From a bacterium (GTDB taxonomy: Bacteria > Patescibacteriota > Microgenomatia > UBA10105 > UBA927), in contig JAKAFY010000003.1 in the NCBI GenBank assembly GCA_021817785.1, positions 4,376 through 68,375 of the forward strand: a stretch of 64,000 nt of DNA, in the 5' to 3' direction. Numbering within the stretch: position 1 is the stretch's first letter; the number at the start of each line of letters is the position of its first letter. This document shows, piece by piece, positions 4,535 to 63,907 of the stretch. A model generated the notes under the pieces. The model was not told the DNA's origin. It made no database searches and worked only from the letters and a program-made list of their open reading frames with translations. Position numbers and translations under genes: made by a program.

Positions 4535-4578
4535 CGCTGGTATTTTACCATGCCCGGCAATGCGCCGCCGCCCATGAT

Positions 4579-4593
4579 CAACCCCAGGGGTTG
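4579..4593. repeat. REP-like palindromic unit CAACCCCAGGGGTTG (copy 1 of 5)
   Basis: Exact 15-mer in the rarA-metK intergenic gap; same unit as the copies around the RAYT gene. Confidence 0.7.
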
Positions 4594-4597
4594 AAAA

Positions 4598-5713
4598 CTA
4601 TGAGACAATTTTTTCCCAGGGAAAGCCGGTGCGCCCAAAGTGGCCGTAACGCGCCGTTTCTCGATAGATGGGCCGTCGGAGATTCAATCCTTTTAAAATC
4701 CCCGGCATGGAAAGATCCAGGAGTGACCAGGCGAACGCTTCGATGTCTGCCAATGGCTTTTTTTCCGTGCCAAACGTCTCTATGGCTTTCGCCAACGGCT
4801 CGCGTTGGCCGATGACGTATGCCACCCGTACTTCCGCTCTATCAGCAAGCCCTTTGGCCACTATGTTTTTGGCGATATAGCGGGCAGCATACGCACCGCT
4901 CCGGTCGACTTTGGTGGGGTCTTTACCGGAAAATGCGCCGCCGCCGTGCCGCGCAAACGCGCCATAGGTATCCACAATGATTTTTCTGCCGGTGACACCG
5001 GTATCGGATGCGGGACCGCCGATGGCCCATTTCCCTTTACTACCATTGACGATAACGTTTTCTATGGGTGGAGCTTTCATGTTATATTTCTTCAACACCG
5101 GCTTGACCACTTTTTCGTACAGAGCGACTTTTAATTTCTCGTTGGTCATAGTGGTGTCGTATGGCACGGCCAGCACGATCCGATCTACCGCCACCGGCTT
5201 GTCATTTTCGTAGATTACTTTTACTTCGCTTTTGCCGTCTGGACGCAAAAACGGGAGAATTTTTTTCTCCCGCGCTTCATCCATACGCTCTACCAGACGA
5301 TGGGCCAAAACTAATGGCAGCGGCATATACTCCGGCGTTTCATTGGTGGCGTACCCGAACATCATACCCTGGTCGCCTGCCCCACCGTCATCTACACCCA
5401 CGGCAATATCGGGAGACTGCTGGTGGATGTAGACCGAAATCGGTGATTTATCCGTAAAGTTGTAGATCGACTTGGTGTATCCTAACGACTTGATCGTTTT
5501 CCGGGCGATCACCTCATAATCCAGCTTTTTCTTGCAGGTGACTTCTCCGGCCAACACGATGCGGTTGGTCGTCACCAACGTTTCAACTGCTACACGAGCC
5601 ATGGGGTCTGCCGCAAGCGCCGCGTCTACGATGGCATCGGAAATCTGGTCGCAAATTTTGTCGGGATGGCCGGAAGCTACGGATTCGGATGTAAAATGGG
5701 TGAGTTTTTTCAT
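4598..5713 (-). CDS. metK: S-adenosylmethionine synthetase
   Basis: GHPDKICDQISDAI and other MetK signatures; start placed at ATG (MKKLTHF) preceded by AAGGAGGG RBS. The ORF track extends upstream to a GTG at 5761. Confidence 0.95.
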   Translation of the reverse strand: MKKLTHFTSESVASGHPDKICDQISDAIVDAALAADPMARVAVETLVTTNRIVLAGEVTCKKKLDYEVIARKTIKSLGYTKSIYNFTDKSPISVYIHQQSPDIAVGVDDGGAGDQGMMFGYATNETPEYMPLPLVLAHRLVERMDEAREKKILPFLRPDGKSEVKVIYENDKPVAVDRIVLAVPYDTTMTNEKLKVALYEKVVKPVLKKYNMKAPPIENVIVNGSKGKWAIGGPASDTGVTGRKIIVDTYGAFARHGGGAFSGKDPTKVDRSGAYAARYIAKNIVAKGLADRAEVRVAYVIGQREPLAKAIETFGTEKKPLADIEAFAWSLLDLSMPGILKGLNLRRPIYRETARYGHFGRTGFPWEKIVS

Positions 5714-5867: not shown

Positions 5868-6167
5868 GAAGGTAAAATGCCCCGCATGACTCCTGCAATT
5901 GAGGCGGAAAAGATATGTGTTGCACCGTAGAGGTATACTTTCTTTGTATATGCCATTTGCTGACGGCCATGTCGTTAACGCACAAGGAACCCCTGTTGAA
6001 ACAACCGGTGAGGCAATTGCACAAGCACGAGCAGAACGGCCAAGAATCATTTTAGTTCGAGATGGCAAAGGCGTATACAGACTTCCAAAATCAGAACGAG
6101 ACGCGCCTGGGTGTTTGTCTCTACTTTTCCGTTTTGGCCCTTTTGGTCGCAAAGAAAAATAACACAT

Positions 6168-6182
6168 CAACCCCAGGGGTTG
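6168..6182. repeat. REP unit CAACCCCAGGGGTTG (copy 2)
   Basis: Exact copy 90 bp upstream of the RAYT gene. Confidence 0.7.
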
Positions 6183-6243
6183 CACGCCTTGCTATTGTTA
6201 TATATCGTACTGACATATGAAGCTAACAGGTGTAGACTCATAT

Positions 6244-6258
6244 CAACCCCAGGGGTTG
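6244..6258. repeat. REP unit CAACCCCAGGGGTTG (copy 3)
   Basis: Exact copy 14 bp upstream of the RAYT start. Confidence 0.7.
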
Positions 6259-6271
6259 GCTACTATAAGCT

Positions 6272-6901
6272 ATGAGCACGCCGGTTCGATATATTCAGAC
6301 AAACGTACCGTATCATATTTATAATCGGGGCAATCGTAAGTCCGAAATATTCCTGCATCAAAAAGATTATCTGCGATTCCTTGATCACATACGGGAGTAT
6401 AAGCAGCAATATAATGTGCGGATCTATTGCTACTGCCTGATGTCGAACCATTTTCATTTGCTCGCTTCATCCTCCGAAGAATCCGGGCTTACTACTTTTA
6501 TGCTTCGTCTGTCCACGAGTCACGCTAAATACTTCAACATGAAATATCACATGGTAGGCAGGCTGTTCCAAGAGCGTTTCCGCGCCAAGCCAGTTGAGTC
6601 CGACGAATATTTCCTCCATCTTTCCCGGTATATACACTTAAATCCCGTATCCGATGATATCGAAACGCTCACCGCGTTATATACAAAGCCATATGAAGAA
6701 TCCAGCAACGTACGAGCAGCACTTCTGGAATACCCCTGGTCTTCGTATCACGAGTATCGCACGGAATCAGCGGATATATGCGATATACACACCATACTGA
6801 ACTATTTTTCAAAAACACATGCCAATCTCTCGTACACCAATTTCGTCGAATCGAGTATTCCTTCTGAATCCAGCCCTATAGTTAGCAACCCCTGGGGTTG
6901 A
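6272..6901 (+). mobile_element. REP-associated tyrosine transposase (RAYT), IS200/IS605-like Y1 HUH transposase
   Basis: 209 aa; YHIYNRGNRK, HUH motif YCLMSNHFHLL, downstream catalytic Tyr region (YIHLNP); flanked by inverted REP units. The last 5 codons (SNPWG) are encoded by a REP copy. Confidence 0.75.
6886..6900. repeat. REP unit, inverted orientation CAACCCCTGGGGTTG (copy 4)
   Basis: Overlaps the RAYT 3' end. Confidence 0.7.
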
Positions 6902-6937
6902 AATGGATAGTTTGAGATATTTTTATGGCTGGGAAAT

Positions 6938-8275
6938 TCAACCCCTGGGGTTGAGAGGAGTGAAGCCGGCTTTGCCGAAGGCGATGCGGTCGAGGACCCG
7001 CTGTTCCATGTCGAGCATCCGGCCTGGAGTGACGACGAAATTGCCAAACCGATCCGATACCCGGTCTATGGCCGCCGTAAGGCTGCGTTTTTTGTCGTCT
7101 TCCGGAAGAAGCGACAATTGTGCCGCTTCCCGCTCCAGATGATAACTATAGATAGCCAGTATGCGCACGGGATTTTCCGGAGCGGCAGCAAGCATGCGGC
7201 GGTACCATTGGTAAAAGTCCATATCCGCGTAGAGGGCAGCAGACAGTTTTTGCTGCGTATGCCAGTGGGTGTGATCGGCAAACAATAACGATATCCCCAC
7301 TCCGGATGCCGTGCAGCCGTCGTCCCGGAGGCGTTTGCCCATTTTCATGGTAAGCTGCGAAAGAATCTGCCACAGCCGGGGATCTGTCGCTGTATACGAT
7401 TTTGGCAACGCATACGACTGACCGAAGCTCTTCTGAAGCTCTTCCTTTTCATCAAATGTCTTGTACATCACGCCGTCTTCCCACCCGTGAAGCCTCTGCC
7501 ACCAGTGATACCCCACGATCGAATGAAACGCCCGCCCTAACGCTTCCTGCGACGCAGAGAGCATCGCCAACGGCGTGGCTATACCGCCATAGCGCAACCT
7601 GGTTGCGTTTCCTTCCTTGATGCCGCATAAATCTTCCAGCTTGAGTGTGCTAAATACGTCTTCTATGGTTTCCCGGGTGATCCACCGCAGCCCGTCCGGC
7701 TTTTCTAGCCCGGATGCGACTTTGGCCAGATACCGGTTGGGGGCTATCCCTATGGACACCGTAAGCCAGTCTCCGATTTCATCCCGGATGCGTTGCTTTA
7801 TGTCCCTGCCGATGTCCTGCATGGCTGGAATTGTTTTCTGAATCATGAATTCAGAATCAGGAATTATGGGAATATTGTTTCTATATTTTTTTAGACTTCG
7901 ATAGAGCGCTGGCGTATTTTTTACATCCAGCACCATTTCATCGATGGATTCCACGCTGAGCGCATCGGTGTAGCTTCCCAAAAGTGCCGTGAGCTGGTGG
8001 TTGACCAGCCGGTATTTGTCGGGATCCGGCGGCAGAATTATTAACCGGGGATACATAAACTGCCCTTCACGCACGGACATACCGGTTTTGATCCCCAGAC
8101 GTTTGGCTTCTTTGGACGCAGCTAATATGCAGCCGTTGCCCGTAGCATACGCCGCAACGACCAGGGGTTTCCCGCGAAACAACGGATTGGCCTGCTGTTC
8201 TACCGTGGCAAAACAGGAATTCAAATCCACATGCATGACGGTCGGAGGTGCAGGGTTAAATTTCATAATTTTCAA
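6938..8275 (-). CDS. dinB: Y-family DNA polymerase IV
   Basis: MHVDLNSCFATVEQ catalytic N-terminus, UmuC/DinB palm-finger layout, little-finger domain. Confidence 0.9.
   Translation of the reverse strand: MKIMKFNPAPPTVMHVDLNSCFATVEQQANPLFRGKPLVVAAYATGNGCILAASKEAKRLGIKTGMSVREGQFMYPRLIILPPDPDKYRLVNHQLTALLGSYTDALSVESIDEMVLDVKNTPALYRSLKKYRNNIPIIPDSEFMIQKTIPAMQDIGRDIKQRIRDEIGDWLTVSIGIAPNRYLAKVASGLEKPDGLRWITRETIEDVFSTLKLEDLCGIKEGNATRLRYGGIATPLAMLSASQEALGRAFHSIVGYHWWQRLHGWEDGVMYKTFDEKEELQKSFGQSYALPKSYTATDPRLWQILSQLTMKMGKRLRDDGCTASGVGISLLFADHTHWHTQQKLSAALYADMDFYQWYRRMLAAAPENPVRILAIYSYHLEREAAQLSLLPEDDKKRSLTAAIDRVSDRFGNFVVTPGRMLDMEQRVLDRIAFGKAGFTPLNPRG
6939..6953. repeat. REP unit, inverted orientation (copy 5)
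   Basis: Overlaps the dinB stop codon; the dinB C-terminal residues LNPRG are REP-encoded. Confidence 0.7.
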
Positions 8276-8334: not shown

Positions 8335-8583
8335 TTAATTTTCTATGTCCATCAATTTCCACCCCAATGTCTCGGCATTCATTTCCAGCCGGAAAAAATT
8401 GATGCCGTCCGTCACCGAAAAGACATGGATAAGGACGCGCCCTTCCCGATACATATGGTGCAGCCCGACCTGCTTGATCTGGTACCGTCTGCCATGCCAG
8501 TAGAGGCCATAAGGAATGATTTTATGTGTGATATGATTACTCCACAGGGTGACGGATACGGGTTCATTAATGGCTTCTGACAT
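8335..8583 (-). CDS. small hypothetical protein (82 aa)
   Basis: In-frame ATG (MSEAINEPVSV...) gives a non-overlapping 82-aa ORF divergent from the GT2 gene; no recognisable motif. Confidence 0.3.
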   Translation of the reverse strand: MSEAINEPVSVTLWSNHITHKIIPYGLYWHGRRYQIKQVGLHHMYREGRVLIHVFSVTDGINFFRLEMNAETLGWKLMDIEN

Positions 8584-8634: not shown

Positions 8635-9357
8635 ATGATACAAAATATGAAAATAAACCGAAAACGCGTATCTACGTCTCTGGTCATCCCCATGTACAAC
8701 GAGGCTACGTATATGCCAAAACTTCTGGCGTCTATCCGCGCATCTACCGTGCTTCCTGACGAAATCATCATCTGCGACAACGGATCTACCGACGACAGCG
8801 TGGCCATCGTCCGGCATGCCATGCATACGCTTCCCATCCGCGTCGTCCATGAACATAACAAAGGCATACGCCATGCCATAGACCGCGCATGGAGGGAAGC
8901 ATCCGGAGATATCATTTTCCGTACCGATGCGGACTGCGTACTGCCCCCACAGTGGATGGCACACGCCCTTTTGCATTTTGCGAACGATCCGCTTCTTATG
9001 GCCTGTACCGGTCCGCTCAAAAGTCCGGACGGCAGCCGGCTGGATATATTCCTCACATTTGCCTGGACGCGCTACCCTGCCATCGCATTTACCTGGCTCC
9101 AAGGCTATCCGCTGCTCATCGGCAGTAACTCCGCGTTCCGGAAAACTGCACTGATCGCAGTAGACGGATACACGACAAAGAAACACGTATTAGAAGATCA
9201 GCTCATAAGCAGGAAGCTTGCCGACGCGGGCATGAAGACCCGGTGGTTTTGGGACATGAGCATGTACCACTCGTCGCGCCGCTTTCACGGCAAGCCGCAC
9301 GCGTATATCCCCTATGTCCTCTCCCTCGTCCACCCCGCGTTCTATGCGGAAAAGTAA
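8635..9357 (+). CDS. family 2 glycosyltransferase (GT-A fold)
   Basis: VIPMYNEA...ICDNGSTDDS...TDADC (DxD) motifs. Confidence 0.85.
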   Translation: MIQNMKINRKRVSTSLVIPMYNEATYMPKLLASIRASTVLPDEIIICDNGSTDDSVAIVRHAMHTLPIRVVHEHNKGIRHAIDRAWREASGDIIFRTDADCVLPPQWMAHALLHFANDPLLMACTGPLKSPDGSRLDIFLTFAWTRYPAIAFTWLQGYPLLIGSNSAFRKTALIAVDGYTTKKHVLEDQLISRKLADAGMKTRWFWDMSMYHSSRRFHGKPHAYIPYVLSLVHPAFYAEK

Positions 9358-9391
9358 CCATCCCAACTCTACAACGATATACTGCATGTAT

Positions 9392-9823
9392 CTAACGTAT
9401 ACGATCCTCAGGAATCATCAATCCAACCGTATCGATATGCCATGCCGCGACAATCCGGTCAACTCGCAGAGCAGATTGAGCAAGTTTCTCTTGCAACCAT
9501 AATTCATCCACAGGACCATTTCGTCCTTTTCTTGCGTGTGAAAGTGCTGCGATTTTAGCTACTCCGGGTATGACGATACTGTCTCGTACTCCTCCTGCAA
9601 TAATGGTCGATCCCTGAGGATCCACATACACCCAAGCCCCACGCAAAGTGCGTAATACACCCGTTGCTAGCTTCCGCGCCAAGTATTCATCACACAGATC
9701 ACCAAGTCTACCTCTGCCAATTGCGCCAAATCCATGTATTAACGTGCGAGACAGCCTGTCGGCGTCCGGTCCACATGCACGGGCTATTCCTAGTAAAATT
9801 CGTTTTTCCTCCCCAGTTTGCAT
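9392..9823 (-). CDS. hypothetical protein (143 aa)
   Basis: Clean ORF with coding-like composition; no motif recognised by eye. Confidence 0.35.
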   Translation of the reverse strand: MQTGEEKRILLGIARACGPDADRLSRTLIHGFGAIGRGRLGDLCDEYLARKLATGVLRTLRGAWVYVDPQGSTIIAGGVRDSIVIPGVAKIAALSHARKGRNGPVDELWLQEKLAQSALRVDRIVAAWHIDTVGLMIPEDRIR

Positions 9824-9942
9824 ATCAGGTAGTATATCAGACTACATCAAGAATACAGTATACCCAGATGCTCGTTAGCACGAATTGACCATGGACACCT
9901 CTATTTCCATAGCTATCGTTCGTGATATAATTAGATTCTGCC

Positions 9943-10019
9943 GCCCCCTTCGTCTAGCGGCCTAGGACAACGGGTTTTCAGCCCGTGAATCGCCGGTCCG
10001 AATCCGGCAGGGGGTACCA
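9943..10019 (+). tRNA. tRNA-Glu (UUC)
   Basis: Cloverleaf by hand: acceptor GCCCCCT/AGGGGGT, D arm GTCT-AGCGGCCTA-GGAC, anticodon stem ACGGG/CCCGT with loop TTTTCAG, T arm GCCGG-TCCGAAT-CCGGC, discriminator A, encoded CCA. Confidence 0.85.
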
Positions 10020-10070
10020 CGCACCATTCGGTGCATGGCTACGCAGTAGACATGCGACGAAGGCAAGTGA

Positions 10071-10106
10071 GGGGTGCACCGTATGGTGCGCCCCTTATTT
10101 TGTTTT
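10071..10106 (+). terminator. rho-independent terminator after tRNA-Glu
   Basis: GGGGTGCACC-GTAT-GGTGCGCCCC followed by TTATTTTGTTTT. Confidence 0.7.
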
Positions 10107-10138
10107 ACTAAACAGTGAAAAGCTCGTATCTTTGAAGT

Positions 10139-10158
10139 AAATCCGGCAGGGGTACTCA
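10139..10158 (+). repeat. degenerate direct copy of the tRNA-Glu 3' end (att-like)
   Basis: AATCCGGCAGGGGTACTCAC versus tRNA 3' end AATCCGGCAGGGGGTACCAC, 120 bp downstream. Confidence 0.6.
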
Positions 10159-10164
10159 CAAAAA

Positions 10165-10190
10165 GATCCCGTCTCATGCGGGATTTTTTG
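10165..10190 (+). terminator. second rho-independent terminator
   Basis: ATCCCG-TCTCATG-CGGGAT then TTTTTT. Confidence 0.6.
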
Positions 10191-10317
10191 ACACTATGCG
10201 TTGGCGGATAAGGACCGGGTACTGTGCAAGAAACGTAACATATAATAGACCTATAGTTGTATTATCCTTACAGGTATAGTATACTATTCCCCACTTTTCT
10301 ATCCGAATTCGTCGGAT

Positions 10318-11001
10318 ATGAGAGGCAACACACATCTCTCTATGCCGACACTCACGCTCGAGGCCCAATGGCCCGAATCTGCCACTGTCCACACCTTCCG
10401 CTTTTCTGCGGATCGGCCCGTCCGCTATGACGCCGGCCAGTACGCCCATTTCCTGATACCGTCTGTCCTGTTGTCTTTGGGCAAACCGACCCGCAAATTC
10501 TCGTTTGCCTCTGCTCCCAATGACCCGGATATCCGTATTACAGCCGATATATCTTCCCACAGCGCGTTTAAGGAGACGCTTCGTTCGCTTAAAACCGGAG
10601 ATACCGTCTCTCTCTACCACGTAGAAGGAGAAATGGTCCTCCCCGATACTGCTGAAGGCACGTATGTGTTTATTGCCGGCGGCATCGGCATGACGCCGTT
10701 TCGGTCGATTCTCCGCGATGTCGAGCAACGGAAGCTTCCGGTGACGCCCGTATTAGTCCAGGTCGGCCACCCACCGTATCTCTATGAAGGGGAATTCCGG
10801 GGCAAACCGTTTGAACAGCACCGTATCGGCCGCACGGATGTGGAGAGCACGTTGCAGGATGTTCTGTCCCGCCATGCGGATTCGCACTATTTTATCGCAG
10901 GCTCCTCCGCGTTTGTCCGCGACACTGCCAATCTGCTAGAGCGCCACGGCGTCCCGGCAGACCAGATACGCAGTGATGAATTTGAGGGGTTGAAAGAATG
11001 A
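10318..11001 (+). CDS. FAD/NAD(P)-binding oxidoreductase of the ferredoxin-NADP reductase / siderophore-interacting family
   Basis: RKFSFAS (RxYS FAD motif), FIAGGIGMTPF NAD(P)-binding motif. Confidence 0.75.
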   Translation: MRGNTHLSMPTLTLEAQWPESATVHTFRFSADRPVRYDAGQYAHFLIPSVLLSLGKPTRKFSFASAPNDPDIRITADISSHSAFKETLRSLKTGDTVSLYHVEGEMVLPDTAEGTYVFIAGGIGMTPFRSILRDVEQRKLPVTPVLVQVGHPPYLYEGEFRGKPFEQHRIGRTDVESTLQDVLSRHADSHYFIAGSSAFVRDTANLLERHGVPADQIRSDEFEGLKE

Positions 11002-11081
11002 TACCTCCGAAGATCATCAGACGAAACATAATCCACCAATAGGCTGTCAGCACCGAGGGTTGGTAAAGACTTCGGTTAGTA

Positions 11082-11119
11082 TGTACATGTGTTCGTCGCC
11101 CACACACCGGGGTGTGTAA
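11082..11119. repeat. 38-bp direct repeat DR1 (TGTACATGTGTTCGTCGCCCACACACCGGGGTGTGTAA)
   Basis: Near-identical to DR2 at 12014; contains the hairpin ACACACC-GG-GGTGTGT; lies about 65 bp upstream of the 11186 ORF. Confidence 0.75.
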
Positions 11120-11185
11120 TTTATGTCTAAATTTGGTAAGCTACAAACTATATAAATTTATAACAGTCAGTTCATTCGCTCAAAT

Positions 11186-11863
11186 ATGGCATCGGGAAAC
11201 AAAAACGAGTTATTCAAATCTAGACCTGGGTTTCTTAGTGAAATCGATAGCTTCAACCGATTTTTATATGAAATACACCCACCAAAACTGGAAGAATTAC
11301 AAACCGTTAGAGATGTTCTTGGAGATAGATTTACTGCTCATTTAGCCGACTTACACGCACCATTGTATGTCTTCAATGGACAATCAGGTCTCAACACAAT
11401 TAGTTATCAAAGTGAAGAACGCGGCTCTAATACCCATTCCTTCTTTCACAAGTATCGCAGAACTAACTATGCATCCATCATAGACGGATGGATTGTTTTT
11501 ATAAATACTTGGAAATCAAATGCCAGTTCAAAATTTCGTCCAAATAAAGCCGCAAGATTTGACTTTATGTTGCTAGACGATTGGATGAATGAAGACAACT
11601 TCCGTTTGGCCAATACAAAAAAATTGAAAGCGGATGTGCGGTCAGCCGGCTTATTTACTAGAGGCTCAAGCGTACTTAGAAAAATTCAAAGCTTAGTATT
11701 AAGTGTGCCCGAAGATTGCAGAATAGACATATATTCAGCAAATCTGCAAAGAGAAAAAATATATAGAAAAATGGTAATGAATCATAATAATATTATTGTT
11801 CACAAAAATTATGAAGATGCGGCATCACCCCTCACTAAGCTGATCAGAAGATTAAATCAATAA
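11186..11863 (+). CDS. hypothetical protein (225 aa), low-GC, bracketed by DR1/DR2
   Basis: About 38% GC against about 55% genome background; no recognisable domain. Confidence 0.5.
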   Translation: MASGNKNELFKSRPGFLSEIDSFNRFLYEIHPPKLEELQTVRDVLGDRFTAHLADLHAPLYVFNGQSGLNTISYQSEERGSNTHSFFHKYRRTNYASIIDGWIVFINTWKSNASSKFRPNKAARFDFMLLDDWMNEDNFRLANTKKLKADVRSAGLFTRGSSVLRKIQSLVLSVPEDCRIDIYSANLQREKIYRKMVMNHNNIIVHKNYEDAASPLTKLIRRLNQ

Positions 11864-12013
11864 TTTTGATAATAAATTTACCCTAATCAACTCCACAACT
11901 CAACAAACAATTTATTACACAATGACGTTTCTAATCCTCTCGACAACTGATAGCTTTTGTATTGATCTACGCTGCACATGGCCGTCCGAGGTGGCCATGA
12001 CTTCGATTCGTTT

Positions 12014-12051
12014 GTACATGTGTTCGTCGCCCACACACCGGGGGTGCGTAA
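12014..12051. repeat. 38-bp direct repeat DR2
   Basis: TGTACATGTGTTCGTCGCCCACACACCGGGGGTGCGTAA; differs from DR1 by one inserted G and one T/C. Confidence 0.75.
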
Positions 12052-12070
12052 CATTCGGTTACTCTCTAAT

Positions 12071-13066
12071 TCATCTTTTCTTCTTTTTCTTCTTTTTACC
12101 AGACCATGTTTGGATGTCAGGATACGACATCGACATTTCCGATCCAGCAGACGGAGGACCTATCTTAAAAGCACGGCGTGCGTTTTCTAAATTTGATAAT
12201 TTTCTGGAAACCACGCCGCCCGCTCCGACCGAAATGCGCTCGTAGATAAACTGATCAGCTTTCATCATGCGGCCGTGCCATGTCCCAGGGTCTTCACCCA
12301 AATCTGTTGACGGTCGACGATGCACTCCATGCTCATCCACGATAAAACCGTCGTCTATAGCCTTTCGTAAGTTGGGAGCCATACGGCTCAATATATCCTC
12401 TCTATCCGCTACTGGCAGCATAAAAAAACGTTGAATTGTCTGGGAAACGCGTGGTTCTTTTCGTTTACGTGCACGAGCACTACCAACTGGATTTAATGAA
12501 TTTATATCCTTAGTTCTTTTCGTTCCCCTGGTCACTAAAAATGCAGGAGCCGGCCTCTCTGCTAACTTGGAAGGCATGTATGTAAAATCAGGCTGTCTCA
12601 GCTCTCCCCGAAAAAATGTGAGTGAATGACCAACGTTTCCTGGTAAATTACGTAGAAATTGTAATAACGGCATATCACCATCTGCCGATTGGATCATGAG
12701 ACTACTCGCTCCCTGCTCTTTCGGAAAATAATATTTGTATGGGACCCCTACCATCCTTTCTCCCCCTGCAGTCACTCGCACTACACCGCGCCCCTGTCCC
12801 TTTGAGTCAGGATGATAGTCTGCTTCTGGCATCCAGTGGTATAACTGAGCAGGCTCTTTGGAACGGTTAGTCACAAGGGTAGTGACTATTTTTCGGAATT
12901 GACCCTCTACAGTGAATACCGTATCCGATGCTGCTGCCGTTATGACACCAGTGGCCCCCATACGCTCAAGCGCGGTAGTCATAACATCAGCCGCATTCGT
13001 TTCTACAGACGTAAAATTTGAAGCACCAAAACTCGAATGATCGTCTATTTCCTTTAGTACTGACAT
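12071..13066 (-). CDS. hypothetical protein (331 aa)
   Basis: Long ORF with no recognised motifs; C-terminal KKKKKKKR arises from a ttttcttctttttcttcttttt tract and may reflect a slippage-prone or artefactual end. Confidence 0.5.
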   Translation of the reverse strand: MSVLKEIDDHSSFGASNFTSVETNAADVMTTALERMGATGVITAAASDTVFTVEGQFRKIVTTLVTNRSKEPAQLYHWMPEADYHPDSKGQGRGVVRVTAGGERMVGVPYKYYFPKEQGASSLMIQSADGDMPLLQFLRNLPGNVGHSLTFFRGELRQPDFTYMPSKLAERPAPAFLVTRGTKRTKDINSLNPVGSARARKRKEPRVSQTIQRFFMLPVADREDILSRMAPNLRKAIDDGFIVDEHGVHRRPSTDLGEDPGTWHGRMMKADQFIYERISVGAGGVVSRKLSNLENARRAFKIGPPSAGSEMSMSYPDIQTWSGKKKKKKKR

Positions 13067-13138
13067 GTCCAGAATTATACTATAGGTTCATAATTTGAAC
13101 AACAAGACGCTTTATACATACCTGATAACCTATCTACG

Positions 13139-13152
13139 CCGGGGGTGAGTAA
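13139..13152. repeat. partial third copy of the DR core (CCGGGGGTGAGTAA)
   Basis: About 70 bp upstream of the 331-aa gene start; same promoter-proximal position as DR1. Confidence 0.4.
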
Positions 13153-13175
13153 TCCTTTACTGATTCGCATACTTA

Positions 13176-13592
13176 TCATCGTCTTCGCGCTTTTACGTCA
13201 GCTTTTGCTTTATTCCAGACTTTTGTAGGAGTCACGATTATACGCGGATCATCAATATCCATAAAATAGCTTAAAACTAGCGCAAAATCGTGTGCAACGT
13301 CTGCCAAGGTATTACCATTAGAGCCTGCGATATTATTGAGTGGGGCAACACCTTTCAGCGCGCCAGCCTTCATTGCTCGGGCAAATCCTATTGGTGCACA
13401 ATATGAAGAGGATGCACCATTAATAACAAATATTTTACCACCCGAATCATTGATTGCGTCCTTTAATTCGGAGTCATCGTCTATACTGGCCCCCACCACC
13501 CAGCCTTGCTTACGACGTTTTTTAGCTAATTCATTTTGACTCGGAACTTCCCCTTCACCGACAAAAACTTTTATAACCTCTGATTTTTGCAT
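13176..13592 (-). CDS. hypothetical protein (about 138 aa), possible Rossmann-like small protein
   Basis: Start placed at MQKSEVIKVFVGEG; alternating beta-alpha pattern (KVFVGEG...KIFVINGASS...) with no firm family assignment. Confidence 0.4.
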   Translation of the reverse strand: MQKSEVIKVFVGEGEVPSQNELAKKRRKQGWVVGASIDDDSELKDAINDSGGKIFVINGASSSYCAPIGFARAMKAGALKGVAPLNNIAGSNGNTLADVAHDFALVLSYFMDIDDPRIIVTPTKVWNKAKADVKARRR

Positions 13593-13764
13593 ATTGCTAC
13601 GGGTAGCGTAACATATTTGCCCATTCCTCACCCGCTTTCATTTTGATTCTCTTCCCCTTCCAAAACAGGATGAAACACGGAAGGGCTGTCGCAGGTTCGA
13701 AGACTCACCCCTGACCCGCATCAGGGCGGCGACGCGAGGTTTGGAGTATAATGCCATTGTATTT

Positions 13765-15210
13765 ATGTCACTAAAGGATTATTTGGATTTTGATCTTCTT
13801 TTTGATTACTTAGAACGAAATATCTATTCTAAGCGGTCTCTAGTTCTCTTCTGTTTTTTATTTCCAGTTATAAGCAGTCTCGCTTTAGACATACTTAAAC
13901 TTTCTCTTAACAATTTCTATTGGTGGATTACTGTTGCCATAGTAGATGTTATCTGGGTGATATTCTGGATTGCGCATCGCAATAAGTATCCCAAGGTGAC
14001 AAAGGGGAAAATTGGAGTAGTGCTAGCCATAGAGACCGAAAATAATCTTATTAGAACAAAAGTTTATAAGGATTTTGTAAATCACTTTAATAAGTTAATC
14101 TTAGAGAACGGTTTAGCGAACTATATTCAACTTATAGAACTTAATGAGTATCAATCCTCAATTTTATCCAACGTCTTAATAAAACATTCGGAATATTTAT
14201 CTCAATTTAGAAGAGATGGATACTTTGATAAAACATCAAGGCCTCAGGACTTGGAAAAAATGCAAGGTAAAATAGGAGGACATTTCTATATATGGGGGAA
14301 AATACGAAAGAGATTAGATAAAGAAAGCAAGTATTTCTTGGATATTGATGGGCTAGTCAGACACATCGGAATTGGAGTAGAAAAACATAAATTAGTTACA
14401 AATAATTTTCTTGAAGCGTGGTTTAAACGGATAGAATTTAGCGAAATATTTGAACTAAAAGGTTTCGAGATCTCTGCTGAACTAGTGTTTCTAGTAGCAA
14501 AGTATATTGTAGGTGTTGCTGCACTTGTATCCCATGACCCCTTGTTAGCACTGACACTTCATTCAAAGCTAAAGGGCGAACTTGCGGATATTTTAACTAA
14601 ATTCAATCCACCACCTCAAAATCTTATTACTATTAGTAAAAAACTAGATTCGTTTATCGCGGAAGAAAATTCATTACTGGCAACTTGGTACATTAGAAAC
14701 GGAAGACCTGACTTATGCGACAAGTATATTCAAGATAGTTTTGCTGCAAAAGCTGAAAATTATTCTGGCTATATTCTTAAAGCATTAAGAGGTTTCCAAG
14801 AAGGGAATATAAAGGAATCTTTTGATTATGTAATGAAGGCGAAAAAAATAGCGGTAAATAACCAAATATGGAGATATGACCTTGCATTCCTTTATATGTG
14901 GGCTGATGATTATAAAAAGGGACTTGCAGAATACAAAAAAATTGCAGAAAAAACTTTTGCAGGAGAAGTTATTACAGTATCGGAAATTATTGACTTTCAA
15001 AAAAAGCTACTAACAACTAATCCAAAATTTGCAGTGAGTTATTTTATATTGGGCTTTCTGTATTATAAAAAATTAAGTAATTTACCAAACGCGCTAGAAA
15101 ACTTTGAAACATTTATGGCTGAAACTAAAAAAATCCCTGCATTCAAGAACTTACGCGAGGTAACGCAGTCGTATTTGTCCGAAATTTCTAAAGGAATGAG
15201 TCTAAAATAG
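13765..15210 (+). CDS. membrane-anchored TPR-like repeat protein (2 N-terminal TM helices), very low GC
   Basis: About 33% GC; N-terminal hydrophobic helices (LVLFCFLFPVISSLAL, WWITVAIVDVIWVIFWIA); Lys-rich C-terminal region with TPR-like helical repeats; TATAAT box just upstream. Confidence 0.55.
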   Translation: MSLKDYLDFDLLFDYLERNIYSKRSLVLFCFLFPVISSLALDILKLSLNNFYWWITVAIVDVIWVIFWIAHRNKYPKVTKGKIGVVLAIETENNLIRTKVYKDFVNHFNKLILENGLANYIQLIELNEYQSSILSNVLIKHSEYLSQFRRDGYFDKTSRPQDLEKMQGKIGGHFYIWGKIRKRLDKESKYFLDIDGLVRHIGIGVEKHKLVTNNFLEAWFKRIEFSEIFELKGFEISAELVFLVAKYIVGVAALVSHDPLLALTLHSKLKGELADILTKFNPPPQNLITISKKLDSFIAEENSLLATWYIRNGRPDLCDKYIQDSFAAKAENYSGYILKALRGFQEGNIKESFDYVMKAKKIAVNNQIWRYDLAFLYMWADDYKKGLAEYKKIAEKTFAGEVITVSEIIDFQKKLLTTNPKFAVSYFILGFLYYKKLSNLPNALENFETFMAETKKIPAFKNLREVTQSYLSEISKGMSLK

Positions 15211-15314
15211 TTCCAATTTCGTCCCAACACCTGTACCATCGTTATCACATTCCCCACCCTTGACTCCAAAAATTGTCCTAGTATATGATTGAACAGTTGT
15301 TCAATTAAACAAGT

Positions 15315-15665
15315 ATGCTTACCACAGAAGATATCAACACTATCAAAGCCGCCGTGGCACGTACCGCGGGCATAGACGCACGTGCGGCGCTGGCCAGGTG
15401 CCTGGCAGACCCAACGTCTCTCAAAATCCTCTATGTGCTGACCCGGAAAAACAATGTGTGCCCCAGCGATTTGGCAGCCATACTCTCACTATCCCTGTCT
15501 ACCGTGTCCCACCAGCTTTCCAAATTAAAGCAGATGGGCGTCGTATCCACTATCCGCCACGGACACATGATATGCTATTCATTGGAACCGACAGAGAAAT
15601 CGGACCTGATCCGAAAGCTCGTGACTATGATCATGGACGGGAAACTCAACGGAGGAGTGGTATGA
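15315..15665 (+). CDS. ArsR/SmtB-family transcriptional regulator
   Basis: Winged HTH: VCPSDLAAILSLSLSTVSHQLSKLKQMGVV. Confidence 0.85.
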   Translation: MLTTEDINTIKAAVARTAGIDARAALARCLADPTSLKILYVLTRKNNVCPSDLAAILSLSLSTVSHQLSKLKQMGVVSTIRHGHMICYSLEPTEKSDLIRKLVTMIMDGKLNGGVV

Positions 15666-20128: not shown

Positions 20129-20144
20129 TGCTATACTGGGAATC

Positions 20145-26087: not shown

Positions 26088-26104
26088 AGCCCCAGCCGAC
26101 TCAC
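26088..26104 (+). repeat. direct copy of the tRNA-Lys 3' end (AGCCCCAGCCGACTCAC)
   Basis: 17/17 identity to the tRNA T-stem and acceptor 3' strand, 78 bp downstream, preceded by the hairpin TCCCGC-CAA-GCGGGA. Confidence 0.65.
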
Positions 26105-26435: not shown

Positions 26436-26534
26436 TTAAACTTGCAAGAAGTTGACGCATTTACGCGTAATACACCTCAGGTCAAAGACTTGCGTCGAGA
26501 CAAAATATCTCCGTCTACAACCCTATAATATTTC

Positions 26535-26565
26535 CAAGGACAGTCTTCCATAAGGACAGTCCCTG
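26535..26565. promoter_or_regulatory. operator-like tandem site AAGGACAGTC-N7-AAGGACAGTCCCTGA overlapping the nuclease promoter
   Basis: Immediately downstream of TATAAT (26524-26529); contains the palindromic core GGACAGTCC; a near-identical site recurs at 27369. Confidence 0.5.
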
Positions 26566-26637
26566 ACGGCGCTGGGTATGCGCAGATTTTGTAATCTACC
26601 ATACTGAACCAATTGATCATCGCTGGTATGATAGTAT

Positions 26638-27312
26638 GTGTCACGCAAAAAAAGGAAAAAGAATATATCACTACCGCGGAGCATACTGACCCGCCTGGGG
26701 CTTACAGCCATAGGGACAGGTATGGCCATCCTCATCGGATCAAACGTACTTTCTGTCCCCTCCTCTACCGCGATCTCCGCCTTTGACGGCGATACCTTTG
26801 TCACCAAAGAAAAGCAGTACATCCGGCTTTCGGGAATCGACGCGCCGGAGACGGGTCGCTGCGGCAGCACCGAAGCCAAAAAGGCACTGGAATCGCTAGT
26901 CATCGGAAAACCGCTGTATATCAAAGTTCTCTACCACACCGGCGCCCGGAGCAACGGATTAGTCTACGGCAAATCCGGACTCGTAAACGCCGAAATGCTG
27001 CGGCAGGGCTGGGCTATATACAATGATCGGGACAACGTGGATCTGCCGGAGCTGGCCAAAGCCACCAAAGAAGCGCGGGAGAACAAGCGCGGGATATTTA
27101 GCAGTCTGTGCACCCAAACGGTAAACGCCGAAAAACCATCCTGCGACATAAAGGGGAATGTCCTGGAAAACGGGGACAAACGGTACCACCTGCCTAGCTG
27201 CGCGTCCTATGCTGCGACGGTCGTCCAGCTGTATAACGGGGACACATGGTTTTGCACGGAGACGGACGCAAAAAAAGCTGGGTTTACTAAATCCGATCGG
27301 TGCTTTCCGTAA
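26638..27312 (+). CDS. secreted or membrane-anchored staphylococcal-nuclease (SNase/thermonuclease)-like nuclease
   Basis: N-terminal Lys-rich region plus TM helix, SNase motifs DGDTF...IRLSGIDAPE...R, C-terminal Cys-containing extension (CDIKGN...YHLPSC). Confidence 0.75.
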   Translation: MSRKKRKKNISLPRSILTRLGLTAIGTGMAILIGSNVLSVPSSTAISAFDGDTFVTKEKQYIRLSGIDAPETGRCGSTEAKKALESLVIGKPLYIKVLYHTGARSNGLVYGKSGLVNAEMLRQGWAIYNDRDNVDLPELAKATKEARENKRGIFSSLCTQTVNAEKPSCDIKGNVLENGDKRYHLPSCASYAATVVQLYNGDTWFCTETDAKKAGFTKSDRCFP

Positions 27313-27368
27313 CAAGCCTATCTGTAAATATCACATTGAACCACTCGTAACTGCACAACAATTTCTAC

Positions 27369-27399
27369 AGGGACAGTCCCCTACAAGGACAGTCCCTGA
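27369..27399. promoter_or_regulatory. second copy of the GGACAGTCC tandem site
   Basis: AGGGACAGTCCCCTACAAGGACAGTCCCTGA, same orientation as the site at 26535, about 830 bp away; followed by the palindrome GCAAAGATCTTTGC and a 26-codon ORF. Confidence 0.5.
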
Positions 27400-43167: not shown

Positions 43168-43185
43168 ACATCAGTAATAAAGAAA

Positions 43186-43330
43186 TAAGTTCGTAAAGTT
43201 CATAAAGTTCGTAAAGTGAAAAAGTTCATAAAGTTCATAAAGTTCGTAAAGTTTATAAAGTTCATAAAGTGAAAAGGTTCATAAAGTTCGTAAAGTGAAA
43301 AAGTTCGTAATGTTTATAACGTTTGTAAAG
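43186..43330. repeat. 9-bp tandem repeat array A (about 16 units of AAGTTCRTA with interspersed AAGTGAAA)
   Basis: aagttcgtaaagttcataaagttcgtaaagtgaaaaagttcataaagttcataaagttcgtaaagtttataaagttcataaagtgaaaaggttcataaagttcgtaaagtgaaaaagttcgtaatgtttataacgtttgtaaag between atpA and atpG. Confidence 0.9.
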
Positions 43331-51968: not shown

Positions 51969-52062
51969 AATAGTTTGTAAAGTTGAAAGTGTATAAAGTT
52001 TGTAACGTAATTACTTTATGAACTTTCGAACTTTATGAACTTTTTAACTTTTTTTCGCCCAT
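51969..52062. repeat. 9-bp tandem repeat array B (forward units then inverted units)
   Basis: agtttgtaaagttgaaagtgtataaagtttgtaacg | ttactttatgaactttcgaactttatgaactttttaacttttttt; overlaps the last codons and stop of gatA. Confidence 0.85.
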
Positions 52063-56383: not shown

Positions 56384-56583
56384 TACTTTATAAACTTTCT
56401 AACTTTATGAACTTTACGAACTTTATGAACTTTCTCACTTTATAAACTTTATGAACTTTCCAACTTTATAAACTTTATGAACTTTTCACTTTTTCCCCTT
56501 CTCACTTTATAAACTTTCCAACTTTATAAACTTTATGAACTTTCTAACTTTATAAACTTTACGAACTTTCTCACTTTACGAAC
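56384..56583. repeat. 9-bp tandem repeat array D (about 22 units ACTTTATRA / ACTTTCYMA)
   Basis: tactttataaactttctaactttatgaactttacgaactttatgaactttctcactttataaactttatgaactttccaactttataaactttatgaacttttcactttttccccttctcactttataaactttccaactttataaactttatgaactttctaactttataaactttacgaactttctcactttacgaac. Confidence 0.9.
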
Positions 56584-60663: not shown

Positions 60664-60737
60664 TTGAAAGTTTATAAAGTTTCAAGTTTTTAACCTTATG
60701 AACTTTATGAACTTTATGAACTTTCGAACTTATTATG
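60664..60737. repeat. 9-bp tandem repeat array E (forward then inverted units)
   Basis: ttgaaagtttataaagtttcaagtttttaaccttatgaactttatgaactttatgaactttcgaacttattatg; encodes the polX C-terminus KFESS*. Confidence 0.85.
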
Positions 60738-63893: not shown

Positions 63894-63907
63894 CCCTTTA
63901 CCCGCTC
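63894..63907 (+). repeat. direct copy of the tRNA-Gly 3' end (CCCTTTACCCGCTC)
   Basis: 14/14 identity to the tRNA T-stem 3' strand, acceptor 3' strand and discriminator, 106 bp downstream, preceded by the small hairpin GCCAGAATGGC. Confidence 0.6.

What the first reader, a model, noticed from the sequence alone, without database searches (positions are those of the whole stretch)
11002..15300. 4.3-kb AT-rich island of unknown-function genes next to tRNA-Glu, with one gene bracketed by 38-bp direct repeats: candidate novel accessory or defence module
GC drops from about 55% to about 33-45% across 11.0-15.3 kb. The island encodes a 225-aa protein, a 331-aa protein (ending in a poly-Lys tract from a T/C homopolymer-rich sequence), a roughly 138-aa Rossmann-like protein and a 481-aa protein with two TM helices and TPR-like repeats. 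None matches a family I recognise. The 225-aa gene is flanked by near-identical 38-bp direct repeats (11082-11119 and 12014-12051) that each contain the hairpin ACACACC-GG-GGTGTGT. A third partial copy (13139-13152) sits at the promoter position of the 331-aa gene. The island starts about 1 kb downstream of tRNA-Glu, which has a duplicated 3' end at 10139. Composition, tRNA proximity, repeats and orphan genes together make this the best candidate in the window for a horizontally acquired system of unknown function. A membrane TPR protein with small partners is a typical shape for an abortive-infection or defence module, but that is speculation.
Basis: partly seen in the sequence, partly recalled or inferred. 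Interest (0 to 1): 0.7.

Follow-up and report, generated by a model that had tools for sequence, protein, structure and literature searches.

The report
Mosaic orphan-gene islet beside tRNA-Glu
The AT-rich stretch and its direct repeat are real, but it is a patchwork of separately acquired, very rare unknown-function genes in a variable slot beside a tRNA gene, not one four-gene defence system.

Summary
The sequence features are mostly real. GC falls to 33-47% over 11.1-15.25 kb. Third-codon GC is 0.28-0.40, against about 0.6 in flanking genes. Four ORFs (A 225 aa, B 331 aa, C 138 aa, D 481 aa) match no Pfam, NCBIfam, PHROG or PADLOC family. The direct repeat is longer than reported: about 62 nt with an exact 30-nt core, two copies only, bounding the AT-rich A segment.

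The four genes are not one module.
- A and B lie side by side downstream of tRNA-Glu in a related genome, at normal GC and without C or D.
- D belongs to a small family that keeps about 33% GC in every host. Its homologues sit beside a serine recombinase, a PADLOC candidate defence system and another tRNA-Glu, never with A, B or C.
- C has no detected relative (no large-database protein search was run).

Models show B has a sigma-70 region-4-like helix-turn-helix domain and D is a membrane-anchored TPR protein.

The "third repeat copy" is at chance level. The duplicated tRNA 3' end occurs at three of the four tRNA genes in the window, so it is not specific to this island. No integrase is present.

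Verdict: an integrase-less, tRNA-linked variable islet. Only D has a weak, context-based defence lead. Interest is modest.

The parts
9943..10019 (+). tRNA-Glu (UUC). It anchors the variable slot.
   Evidence: ARAGORN and Rfam, 52.6 bits. Relatives L055 and L056 have a tRNA-Glu in the same position relative to the A homologue.
10140..10152 (+). Exact 13-nt copy of the tRNA-Glu 3' end (AATCCGGCAGGGG). It lies after a terminator-like hairpin at 10065-10100.
   Evidence: tRNA-Lys and tRNA-Gly show the same kind of copy, so it is not specific to this island.
10318..11001 (+). N227, a 227-aa protein with normal GC (0.56) in the tRNA-proximal slot. It has a weak FNR-type NAD-binding signature.
   Evidence: Pfam NAD_binding_1 E = 3e-4, just under the cutoff. 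The best relatives in 185,579 species genomes are at most 32% identical. It is absent from this position in L055 and L056.
11057..11119 (+). Direct repeat copy 1 (exact core 11083-11112). It contains the hairpin CACACACC-GG-GGTGTGTG followed by AATTTAT, which is terminator-like for N227.
   Evidence: The AT-rich DNA begins at its right edge.
11186..11863 (+). Gene A, 225 aa, GC 0.36. It belongs to a small conserved family of unknown function.
   Evidence: Three homologues at 56-60% identity carry long invariant motifs (LHAPLYVFN, KAARFDFMLL, SVPEDCRID). The two with usable context (L055, L056) lie about 1-1.5 kb downstream of a tRNA-Glu. No family or PDB match.
11988..12051 (+). Direct repeat copy 2 (exact core 12014-12043), between the convergent genes A and B.
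   Evidence: GC rises again at about 11950, just before it.
12071..13066 (-). Gene B, 331 aa. It has an N-terminal alpha/beta domain of unknown fold (about residues 25-155), a disordered basic linker, a C-terminal sigma-70 region-4-like helix-turn-helix (about 205-300) and a poly-Lys tail.
13067..13097 (-). Promoter region of B. On the minus strand it reads AACCTATAGTATAAT, then 7 nt, then the ATG, which looks leaderless.
   Evidence: A 15-nt exact match to the same position upstream of the B homologue in L056. The leaderless reading is inference.
13176..13592 (-). Gene C, 138 aa, with no detected relative outside this strain (limited searches).
   Evidence: No relatives in the JGI metagenome scan, the fetched loci or PDB. 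Its 90% cluster has one member. It is not related to the genes that flank D homologues. No large-database protein homology search was run for C.
13681..13745 (.). GC-rich (0.62) conserved noncoding element just upstream of D's TATAAT box and start codon.
   Evidence: About 85% identical to L055 10753-10810 (blastn-short E = 8e-7), although neighbouring proteins are only about 60% identical. No significant RNA fold and no Rfam match.
13765..15210 (+). Gene D, 481 aa, GC 0.33. It has two N-terminal transmembrane helices (about residues 23-44 and 50-72), an alpha/beta domain (about 83-235) and a TPR array (about 238-478).
15315..15665 (+). ArsR-family regulator. It is the first gene with native composition on the right flank.
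   Evidence: Pfam HTH_5 E = 6.5e-13. GC3 0.63.

Best explanation
The 4.3-kb stretch is a mosaic variable region ("islet") in a gene-exchange slot downstream of tRNA-Glu. The host is a small-genome bacterium, probably a member of the Patescibacteria/CPR (inferred). It is not a single system. It holds at least three independent units.

1. **Gene A.** A belongs to a small, strongly conserved family that also lies just downstream of tRNA-Glu in two related genomes. Here it is an AT-rich version whose DNA is bounded exactly by a 62-nt direct repeat. I infer that the repeat is a duplicated, hairpin-bearing intergenic junction left by the recombination event that placed this A allele between N227 and B.
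2. **Gene B, possibly with C.** B is a very rare protein with an unknown N-terminal domain, a sigma-70 region-4-like helix-turn-helix and a basic tail. It is most likely a DNA-binding regulator. C has no detected relative.
3. **Gene D.** D is a membrane-anchored protein whose alpha/beta and TPR domains probably face the cytoplasm. It was recently transferred from a low-GC donor and inserted behind a resident promoter element. Its relatives travel as single cargo genes in mobile-element and defence-island contexts. I infer that D is a stand-alone accessory gene, possibly a membrane-tethered sensor or scaffold involved in conflict with phages or mobile elements.

Shown: composition, repeat anatomy, gene distribution and folds. 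Inferred: the insertion history and all functions.
For: **Composition**
- GC3 is 0.28-0.40 for A-D against 0.54-0.69 for the flanks. The dip is the deepest in the window.

**Mosaic structure**
- L056 is syntenic through NUDIX, MgsA, MetK and DinB. It carries an A homologue (60% identity) and a B homologue (47%) in the same convergent arrangement downstream of tRNA-Glu. Their GC3 is near-native (0.58 and 0.63), and C and D are absent.
- L055 has tRNA-Glu, a 161-aa gene and an A homologue, followed by different genes up to EamA.
- The slot next to the tRNA holds a different gene in each genome: N227 here, an AT-rich SRAP gene (GC 0.37) in L056, and a repeat-bracketed 161-aa gene in L055.

**Gene D**
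- Six homologues at 53-60% identity plus one at 24%. None lies near an A, B or C homologue.
- Their neighbours are: an M78 peptidase gene upstream, with a large serine recombinase gene 345 nt downstream, beyond a 116-aa ORF (L046-48); a complete PDC-M33A/B/C candidate defence system ending 41 nt upstream (L049); and a tRNA-Glu with its own 3'-end copy (L050).
- The close homologues have 32-34% GC in every host.
- The GC-rich element and TATAAT box upstream of D are homologous to a site in L055 that precedes an unrelated gene.

**Folds**
- D is TPR. B has a sigma region-4-like domain.

**Repeat**
- Exact 30-nt core, two copies, AT-rich DNA from 11115 to 11950 exactly between them.
Against: - No recombinase lies in or next to the islet. 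No excised or A-less variant was seen in 12 same-strain contigs. The insertion history is therefore inferred from composition and repeats only.
- A and B are syntenic in a relative. Their low GC here could reflect something other than transfer. N143, a syntenic gene upstream of the tRNA, also has low GC3 (0.36).
- The repeat's exact core with more diverged flanks fits a constrained functional element (terminator or operator) as well as it fits an insertion scar.
- The defence lead for D rests on two neighbourhoods only. D has no PADLOC, phage or plasmid match.
- The model confidences are moderate (pLDDT 67 and 74). D's alpha/beta domain and B's N-terminal domain remain unassigned.
Confidence: 0.6

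Rival explanations
1. A, B, C and D form one horizontally acquired functional module, for example an abortive-infection or defence system built around the membrane TPR protein.
For: The genes are contiguous, all have low GC3 and all lack known families. One D homologue lies next to a PDC-M33 candidate defence system.
Against: The genes do not co-occur elsewhere. A and B appear without C and D in L056. D appears without A, B or C in L046-50 and L071. The orientations are +, -, -, +, with separate promoters, so there is no operon. GC-normal conserved elements separate the AT-rich blocks. No PADLOC hit.
Confidence: 0.06
2. Gene A with one repeat copy (about 931 bp) is a non-autonomous mobile cassette. 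It would be inserted and excised by site-specific recombination at the 30-nt core by a recombinase supplied in trans, as with Xer-dependent dif modules or integrase-less satellites.
For: A single gene is bracketed by direct repeats with an identical 30-nt core and less similar arms. The foreign-composition DNA lies exactly between the copies. A second gene, the SNase-like gene at 26638-27312, is bracketed by 40-nt repeats downstream of tRNA-Lys. In L055 a 161-aa gene is bracketed by repeats about 45 nt long.
Against: There are only two copies, and no other copy in 64 kb or in viral contigs. No variant lacking A was found among same-strain contigs. By inspection there is no 11-6-11 Xer-type palindrome and no attC core. 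A homologues occupy the same locus in relatives without such repeats. The SNase repeat has a different sequence and encloses a gene of native GC.
Confidence: 0.15
3. The repeat is a functional regulatory element present twice. It could be a terminator or attenuator hairpin, or an operator pair bound by the neighbouring helix-turn-helix protein B. In that case it says nothing about mobility.
For: Each copy lies in an intergenic terminator position: after N227, and between the convergent genes A and B. Copy 1 scores as terminator-like. The core is perfectly conserved while the flanks have diverged. The core has three GTGT/ACAC arms that could form alternative hairpins (read from the sequence). 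B has a DNA-binding fold.
Against: The fold energies are no better than shuffled sequence, with z between -0.3 and +0.3. L056, which has the A and B homologues, has no comparable repeat. An exact 30-nt match is much longer than an operator needs.
Confidence: 0.2
4. The region is native, vertically inherited lineage-specific DNA. Its low GC would reflect weak selection or low expression rather than horizontal transfer.
For: A and B are syntenic with L056, and A with L055. The syntenic gene N143 also has low GC3. All same-species contigs carry the region unchanged.
Against: The A and B homologues have near-native GC3 in their own genomes. D keeps the same 33% GC in unrelated hosts and is absent from both relatives. 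The composition changes within tens of bases at the repeat copies and at D's start codon.
Confidence: 0.1

Closest known systems
tRNA-linked genomic islands or islets (integrase-mediated insertion at tRNA 3' ends)
   Same: It lies 1 kb downstream of a tRNA gene and has atypical composition. Gene content at the same tRNA differs between related genomes. A copy of the tRNA 3' end lies nearby.
   Different: There is no integrase or other recombinase. No tRNA-derived repeat marks the far end. The 3'-end copy is only 120 nt from the tRNA and is also found at tRNA-Lys and tRNA-Gly. The content is a patchwork of at least three units with different histories.
Defence islands and PADLOC candidate systems (such as PDC-M33)
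   Same: One D homologue lies directly after a complete PDC-M33A/B/C set. Another lies in a mobile-element context, with an M78 peptidase gene upstream and a serine recombinase gene 345 nt downstream. These are typical positions for defence cargo genes.
   Different: None of A-D matches any PADLOC model. D has no recognisable effector domain (nuclease, TIR, NTPase or similar). No phenotype is known.
TPR-repeat proteins (peptide- or protein-binding scaffolds, such as RRNPP-type sensors or membrane-anchored TPR adaptors)
   Different: The N-terminal two-helix membrane anchor plus an unassigned alpha/beta domain of about 150 residues is an architecture that matched nothing as a whole. The window's own D sequence does not reach Pfam TPR thresholds.
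Sigma-70 region 4 and ECF sigma-factor -35-binding helix-turn-helix domains
   Different: There is no sigma region 2 and no Pfam Sigma70_r4 hit. A beta-hairpin is inserted in the domain. It is fused to an unknown N-terminal domain and a poly-Lys tail. B is not a sigma factor.
Recombinase-less gene modules bracketed by short direct repeats (Xer-dependent dif modules, integron cassettes)
   Same: A single gene of about 0.9 kb, without its own recombinase, is flanked by direct repeats that contain an imperfect palindrome.
   Different: By inspection there is no XerC/XerD-type 11-6-11 site and no attC R''/R' core. There is only one unit, no array and no integron integrase.

Membership tests
Classical tRNA-linked genomic island | Lies next to the 3' end of a tRNA gene | tested here: met
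   tRNA-Glu is at 9943-10019. The AT-rich DNA starts at about 11115.
Classical tRNA-linked genomic island | Composition differs from the host genome | tested here: met
   GC3 is 0.28-0.40 against about 0.6 in the flanks. These are the lowest GC bins in the window.
Classical tRNA-linked genomic island | Integrase or recombinase gene at one end | tested here: not met
   No recombinase domain in any ORF from 9.4 to 17.4 kb. The nearest transposase, a Y1 type at 6272-6901, lies on the other side of the tRNA and has different palindromes.
Classical tRNA-linked genomic island | Direct repeats derived from the tRNA 3' end bracket the whole island | tested here: not met
   The only copy is at 10140-10152, before the island. 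None lies at 15.2-15.3 kb or elsewhere nearby.
Classical tRNA-linked genomic island | Present or absent at the same locus among relatives | tested here: inconclusive
   C and D are absent from L055 and L056. A is present in both and B in L056. All same-species contigs are identical. No intermediate relatives were available.
Known or candidate anti-phage defence system (PADLOC-DB v2) | Match to a system's protein HMMs | tested here: not met
   0 families for A, B, C and D at E <= 0.1.
Known or candidate anti-phage defence system (PADLOC-DB v2) | Repeated placement beside defence or mobile-element genes | tested here: inconclusive
   For D only. One close-homologue context of four lies directly after a candidate defence system (PDC-M33 in L049). 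A second (L046-48) has an M78 peptidase gene upstream and a serine recombinase gene 345 nt downstream, beyond a 116-aa ORF. The other two contexts are the window itself and L050.
TPR repeat proteins (gene D) | Tandem helix-turn-helix repeats forming a TPR superhelix | tested here: met
Sigma-70 family sigma factors (gene B) | Region 4 helix-turn-helix fold | tested here: met
Sigma-70 family sigma factors (gene B) | Region 2 (core-binding, -10 recognition) and matches to Pfam Sigma70_r2 and Sigma70_r4 | tested here: not met
   No Pfam hit for B or any of its 5 relatives. The N-terminal domain is alpha/beta, not the helical sigma-2 fold.
Integron gene cassette | attC site with R'' (RYYYAAC) and R' (GTTRRRY) cores, and an integron integrase nearby | tested here: not met
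   By inspection, no such cores lie in either repeat copy. No integrase was found. This is a weak test because no attC covariance model was run.
IS200/IS605-type element mobilised by a Y1 transposase | Subterminal hairpins at both ends, recognised by a cognate Y1 transposase | tested here: inconclusive
   Both repeat copies hold a hairpin in the same orientation. The only Y1 transposase in the window (6272-6901) is flanked by a different palindrome, CAACCCCWGGGGTTG.

The most novel reading that the evidence does not exclude
Single genes bracketed by hairpin-bearing direct repeats of 40-60 nt occur twice in this window, each about 0.5-1 kb downstream of a tRNA gene whose 3' end is duplicated. 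One is A at tRNA-Glu and the other is an SNase-like gene at tRNA-Lys. A repeat-bracketed 161-aa gene lies beside tRNA-Glu in a relative. Together these could mark an undescribed cassette-insertion mechanism in small-genome (CPR-like) bacteria that needs no recombinase in the cassette. D would then be a new single-gene, membrane-anchored TPR defence protein carried by that traffic.
Probability: 0.1. Interest if true: 0.65.

Novelty: new member of a known kind. Interest (0 to 1): 0.35.

Why it matters
The finding gives a concrete, well-bounded example of gene flux at a tRNA-linked slot in a reduced genome that has no integrase nearby. It also defines three very small protein families worth a structural or functional look.
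- The A family has 4 known members.
- The B family has 5 cluster representatives in 1.84 billion. It combines a sigma region-4-like helix-turn-helix with an unknown domain.
- The D family has about 7 members. It has a membrane anchor, an alpha/beta domain and a TPR array, and it lies next to mobile-element and candidate defence genes.

If D proved to be a stand-alone defence gene, it would add to the sparse knowledge of immunity in CPR-like bacteria. As it stands this is a candidate list, not a new system.

Tried and rejected
- **Profile libraries.** Pfam, NCBIfam, PHROGs and PADLOC gave nothing for A-D. Scanning every family member separately gave only weak TPR hits for D.
- **PDB sequence and profile searches.** Nothing meaningful.
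- **Rfam on the region and the whole window.** Only tRNAs.
- **RNA folding of both repeat copies and of the C-D element, on both strands.** No better than shuffled sequence.
- **Genome-contig scan.** I spent it on N227 hoping for syntenic relatives. It returned only homologues of 32% identity or less in unrelated taxa, so it gave no presence/absence test.
- **Metagenome scans.** C gave no relatives. The A alignment gave only a sibling contig of L056.
- **Viral-contig scans.** D, A, B, the repeat core and the C-D element all came back empty.
- **Phage and plasmid tblastn with D.** Empty.
- **A partner for D.** I tested whether the 134-aa gene divergent from D's homologue in L046, or the 136-aa gene upstream of B's homologue in L069, is a C homologue. 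Neither is (no alignment, and pairwise E = 0.023 at 19% identity).
- **A-less variants.** Short Logan contigs break at 11111 and 12013, the edges of the exact 30-nt core. That is what a k = 31 assembly graph does at such a repeat (my knowledge of how Logan contigs are built). It is not evidence of polymorphism.
- **L050 similarity.** A resemblance between the C-D element and the sequence next to the tRNA 3'-end copy in L050 looked suggestive by eye. It did not reach E <= 0.5 in an unbiased search, so I dropped it.
- **After-D similarity to L056 9556-9600.** Marginal (E about 0.07-0.5) and left as a note.
- **afdb50 fold library.** Not available.
- **Literature searches.** Searches for the MAG accessions, PDC-M33 and DUF6339 found nothing.

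Full report
**1. Checking the observation**

The composition dip is real. In 1-kb bins the window averages 0.50 GC. The bins at 11-12 kb (0.373) and 14-15 kb (0.328) are the lowest of all 64. At synonymous positions the contrast is sharper. GC3 is 0.32 (A), 0.40 (B), 0.32 (C) and 0.28 (D), against 0.54-0.69 for DinB, GT2, N227, ArsR, M207, ATP-cone, N148, HAD, VKOR and LytR.

The four ORFs are as described:
- A: 11186-11863 (+), 225 aa.
- B: 12071-13066 (-), 331 aa, ending WSGKKKKKKKR.
- C: 13176-13592 (-), 138 aa from the ATG.
- D: 13765-15210 (+), 481 aa.

None matches a Pfam, PADLOC, PHROG or NCBIfam family. Rfam finds only the tRNA.

The direct repeat is real and longer than reported. It is 52 nt at 88% identity without gaps (11061-11112 / 11992-12043). 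With one indel it is about 62 nt (11057-11119 / 11988-12051). The exact 30-nt core occurs only twice in 64 kb, with none expected by chance.

The "third partial copy" near 13139 is not above chance. The motif is found 5 times against 2.6 expected, and 16 of 100 shuffles do as well.

tRNA-Glu lies at 9943-10019. A 13-nt exact copy of its 3' end lies at 10140-10152. tRNA-Lys and tRNA-Gly in the same window have the same kind of copy 80-125 nt downstream. The feature is therefore genome-wide and not a mark of this island.

**2. Where the sequence comes from**

Exact copies of B, A and N227 occur on 10, 6 and 12 metagenome or MAG contigs. These come from ENA assemblies ERZ272375xx, NCBI MAGs GCA_021839845.1 and GCA_027424465.1, and Logan assemblies. 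All are 99.86-100% identical to the window, so they are one strain or species. No contig lacks A or any other island gene.

Short Logan contigs end at 11111 and 12013, the edges of the 30-nt core. A k = 31 assembly graph would break there (my knowledge of how Logan contigs are built), so this is not evidence of polymorphism.

Three observations point to a Patescibacteria/CPR-type host. The related contigs are 0.29-0.85 Mb long. One D homologue is labelled Candidatus Gracilibacteria. The distant N227 homologues include Adlerbacteria, Levyibacteriota and Saccharimonadales. This assignment is inference and was not tested.

**3. The four genes are not one module**

A has three homologues at 56-60% identity, with long invariant motifs.

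In L056 (JGI 3300013137, a 286-kb contig) the genes NUDIX, MgsA, MetK and DinB are syntenic with the window. A tRNA-Glu lies at 8487-8561. The A homologue (10001-10687, +) and a B homologue (47% identity, about 10771-11730, -) sit convergently, exactly as in the window. C and D are absent. There the A and B homologues have GC3 of 0.58 and 0.63, close to that genome's housekeeping genes at 0.62-0.76.

In L055 (a 730-kb contig) the order is tRNA-Glu, a 161-aa gene, the A homologue, and then unrelated genes up to EamA. EamA corresponds to window position 20142.

The gene nearest the tRNA differs in each genome:
- Window: N227, with normal GC and best relatives at 32% identity or less in other phyla.
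- L056: an SRAP gene with GC 0.37.
- L055: a 161-aa gene bracketed by direct repeats about 45 nt long that contain fragments of the tRNA 3' end.

The interval downstream of tRNA-Glu is therefore a recurrent exchange slot in this lineage. A is its most stable occupant.

B is extremely rare. The word-indexed search of 5.8 billion clusters found two proteins: the window's own cluster representative and one relative at 50% identity. A full HMMER pass over 1.84 billion representatives found five representatives in all, the query's own included. One of them, P0014 in L069, has no A homologue next to it.

C has no relative in the JGI metagenome scan, in any fetched locus or in PDB. No large-database protein homology search was run for C.

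D has six homologues at 53-60% identity and one at 24%. None lies near an A, B or C homologue.

**4. What D is**

An AlphaFold2 model built from the 7-sequence alignment has mean pLDDT 74 and pTM 0.65. It shows:
- two N-terminal helices (residues 23-44 and 50-72) that coincide with the only strongly hydrophobic N-terminal segments;
- an alpha/beta domain (about 83-235);
- an all-helical C-terminal half with pLDDT 83-96.

The basic residues before TM1 (SKRS) and after TM2 (HRNKYPKVTKGK) suggest that both termini, and so the alpha/beta and TPR domains, face the cytoplasm. This follows from the positive-inside rule and is inference. A third hydrophobic helix at 234-258 carries an invariant Lys, so I do not count it as transmembrane. 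The alpha/beta domain remains unassigned because the TPR hits swamp the whole-chain searches.

The contexts of the homologues are informative.
- In L046-48 the gene is preceded by a divergently transcribed pair: a 134-aa gene with no Pfam hit and an M78 (ImmA/IrrE-type) peptidase gene. It is followed by a 116-aa ORF and then, 345 nt downstream of D's homologue, a large serine recombinase gene (Resolvase, Recombinase and Zn-ribbon domains).
- In L049 the gene starts 41 nt after a complete PADLOC candidate system, PDC-M33A/B/C (E = 2e-106, 1.5e-56 and 2.5e-43).
- In L050, a Gracilibacteria MAG, it lies about 300 nt from a tRNA-Glu that also has a downstream copy of its 3' end.

The close homologues have 32-34% GC whether the contig is 38-42% GC or, as here, 50%. 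D is therefore a recently transferred single-gene cargo.

Its upstream 60-nt GC-rich element and TATAAT box are about 85% identical to a site in L055 that precedes an unrelated gene beginning with the same M-S-L codons. The AT-rich coding DNA appears to have been placed behind a resident promoter region.

D has no match in PADLOC, phage genomes, plasmids or viral contigs.

**5. What B is**

There is no sigma region 2, and no Pfam hit for any family member. B therefore works like a region-4-type DNA binder but is not a sigma factor. The N-terminal alpha/beta domain, with invariant HW, GxP and DG..PLL.FLR motifs, has no convincing structural neighbour.

B's promoter (AACCTATAGTATAAT, 7 nt, then the ATG) is conserved with L056 and looks leaderless. 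The leaderless reading is inference. The poly-Lys tail is a conserved basic tail, not a frameshift artefact.

**6. The direct repeat**

The two copies sit in terminator positions. Copy 1 follows N227 and scores as terminator-like. Copy 2 lies between the convergent genes A and B. The AT-rich DNA (about 11115-11950) lies exactly between them.

The identical 30-nt core contrasts with about 73% identity in the 22 nt to its left. This fits two readings:
- an att-like core left by a recombination event that inserted this A allele; or
- an old duplication whose core is kept by function, as a hairpin terminator or an operator.

RNA fold energies are no better than shuffled sequence. The relatives that carry A, or A with B, have no such repeat. 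No second family member was found in the window or in viral contigs.

I favour an insertion footprint, but only weakly.

There is a parallel elsewhere in the window. A 224-aa SNase-like gene (26638-27312) is bracketed by 40-nt repeats (26527-26566 / 27360-27399). Each copy has two GGGACAGTCCC palindromes. The gene lies 0.5 kb downstream of tRNA-Lys, which also has a duplicated 3' end. That gene has native GC, and its homologue lies next to the A and B homologues in L056.

**7. Comparison with known systems, and verdict**

The region has the adjacency, the composition and the between-genome variability of a tRNA-linked genomic islet. It fails two defining features of a classical island: it has no recombinase, and no tRNA-derived repeat lies at its far end. 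It matches no known defence system.

The four-gene "module" reading is not supported. A horizontally assembled patchwork is supported. Only D retains a context-based, untested defence lead.

I rate it as a new member of a known kind, an integrase-less variable islet built from very rare hypothetical genes, with modest interest (0.35). The most novel reading still open is a recombinase-less cassette traffic at tRNA-proximal, repeat-bounded sites, with D as a new single-gene defence protein. I give that reading about 10%.

Noticed in passing
window 10140-10152, 26088-26104, 63894-63907: Three of the four tRNA genes in the window (Glu, Lys, Gly, but not Asp) have an exact 13-17-nt copy of their own 3' end 80-125 nt downstream, after a hairpin. 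The same feature appears at a tRNA-Glu in a Gracilibacteria MAG contig (L050, copy at 1654-1669). Several copies lie downstream of tRNA-Glu in L055. They could be integration scars or a functional feature.
   Followed up: partly
window 26527-26566 and 27360-27399 (gene 26638-27312): This is a second gene-bracketing direct repeat: 40 nt at 80% identity, each copy with two GGGACAGTCCC palindromes. It flanks a 224-aa SNase-like gene of native GC, 0.5 kb downstream of tRNA-Lys. The homologue of that gene lies next to the A and B homologues in relative L056 (11836-12516).
   Followed up: partly
window 43182-43330, 52013-52051, 56385-56585, 60667-60741: Arrays of a 9-bp tandem unit (AAGTTCATA, or ACTTTATGA on the other strand) run to 15-23 copies at four intergenic sites within 18 kb. 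They could be iteron-like or DnaA-box-like binding-site clusters. Their function is unknown.
   Followed up: no
window 4577-4604, 6166-6269, 6884-6964; ORF 6272-6901 (+): A 209-aa Y1 (IS200/IS605-type) transposase gene is flanked by two copies on each side of the palindrome CAACCCCWGGGGTTG. A fifth copy lies 1.6 kb away. This looks like a REP/RAYT-like or IS200-like arrangement.
   Followed up: no
L055 9255-9294 and 9885-9930 (gene 9365-9850): In a related genome, the 161-aa gene between tRNA-Glu and the A homologue is bracketed by direct repeats about 45 nt long that include fragments of the tRNA-Glu 3' end. Further 35-42-nt repeats cluster at 8801-9268.
   Followed up: partly
window 13681-13745 and L055 10753-10810: A GC-rich noncoding element is about 85% identical between two genomes whose neighbouring proteins are only about 60% identical. 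In both it is followed by TATAAT and a start reading ATGTCACT (M-S-L) of unrelated genes. It has no Rfam match and no significant fold.
   Followed up: partly
L056 8792-9523: In the relative, the slot right after tRNA-Glu holds an AT-rich SRAP-domain gene (GC 0.37, GC3 0.29, in a 54% GC contig). This is another foreign gene at the same hot spot.
   Followed up: no
L049 707-4161: A complete PADLOC candidate defence system, PDC-M33A/B/C (the C protein is DUF6339), lies immediately upstream of a D homologue on a 6.6-kb Logan contig. A VRR-NUC-like 156-aa gene follows the D homologue.
   Followed up: partly
window 9392-9823 (-): The 143-aa gene just upstream of tRNA-Glu has low GC3 (0.36), although it is syntenic with a 38%-identical gene of normal GC in L056. 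The compositional anomaly therefore extends to the other side of the tRNA.
   Followed up: no
window 15205-15250 and L056 9556-9600: The roughly 42 nt right after D's stop codon resemble (about 83% identity) an intergenic site between the SRAP gene and the 97-aa gene in L056. The match is statistically marginal (E about 0.07-0.5).
   Followed up: partly
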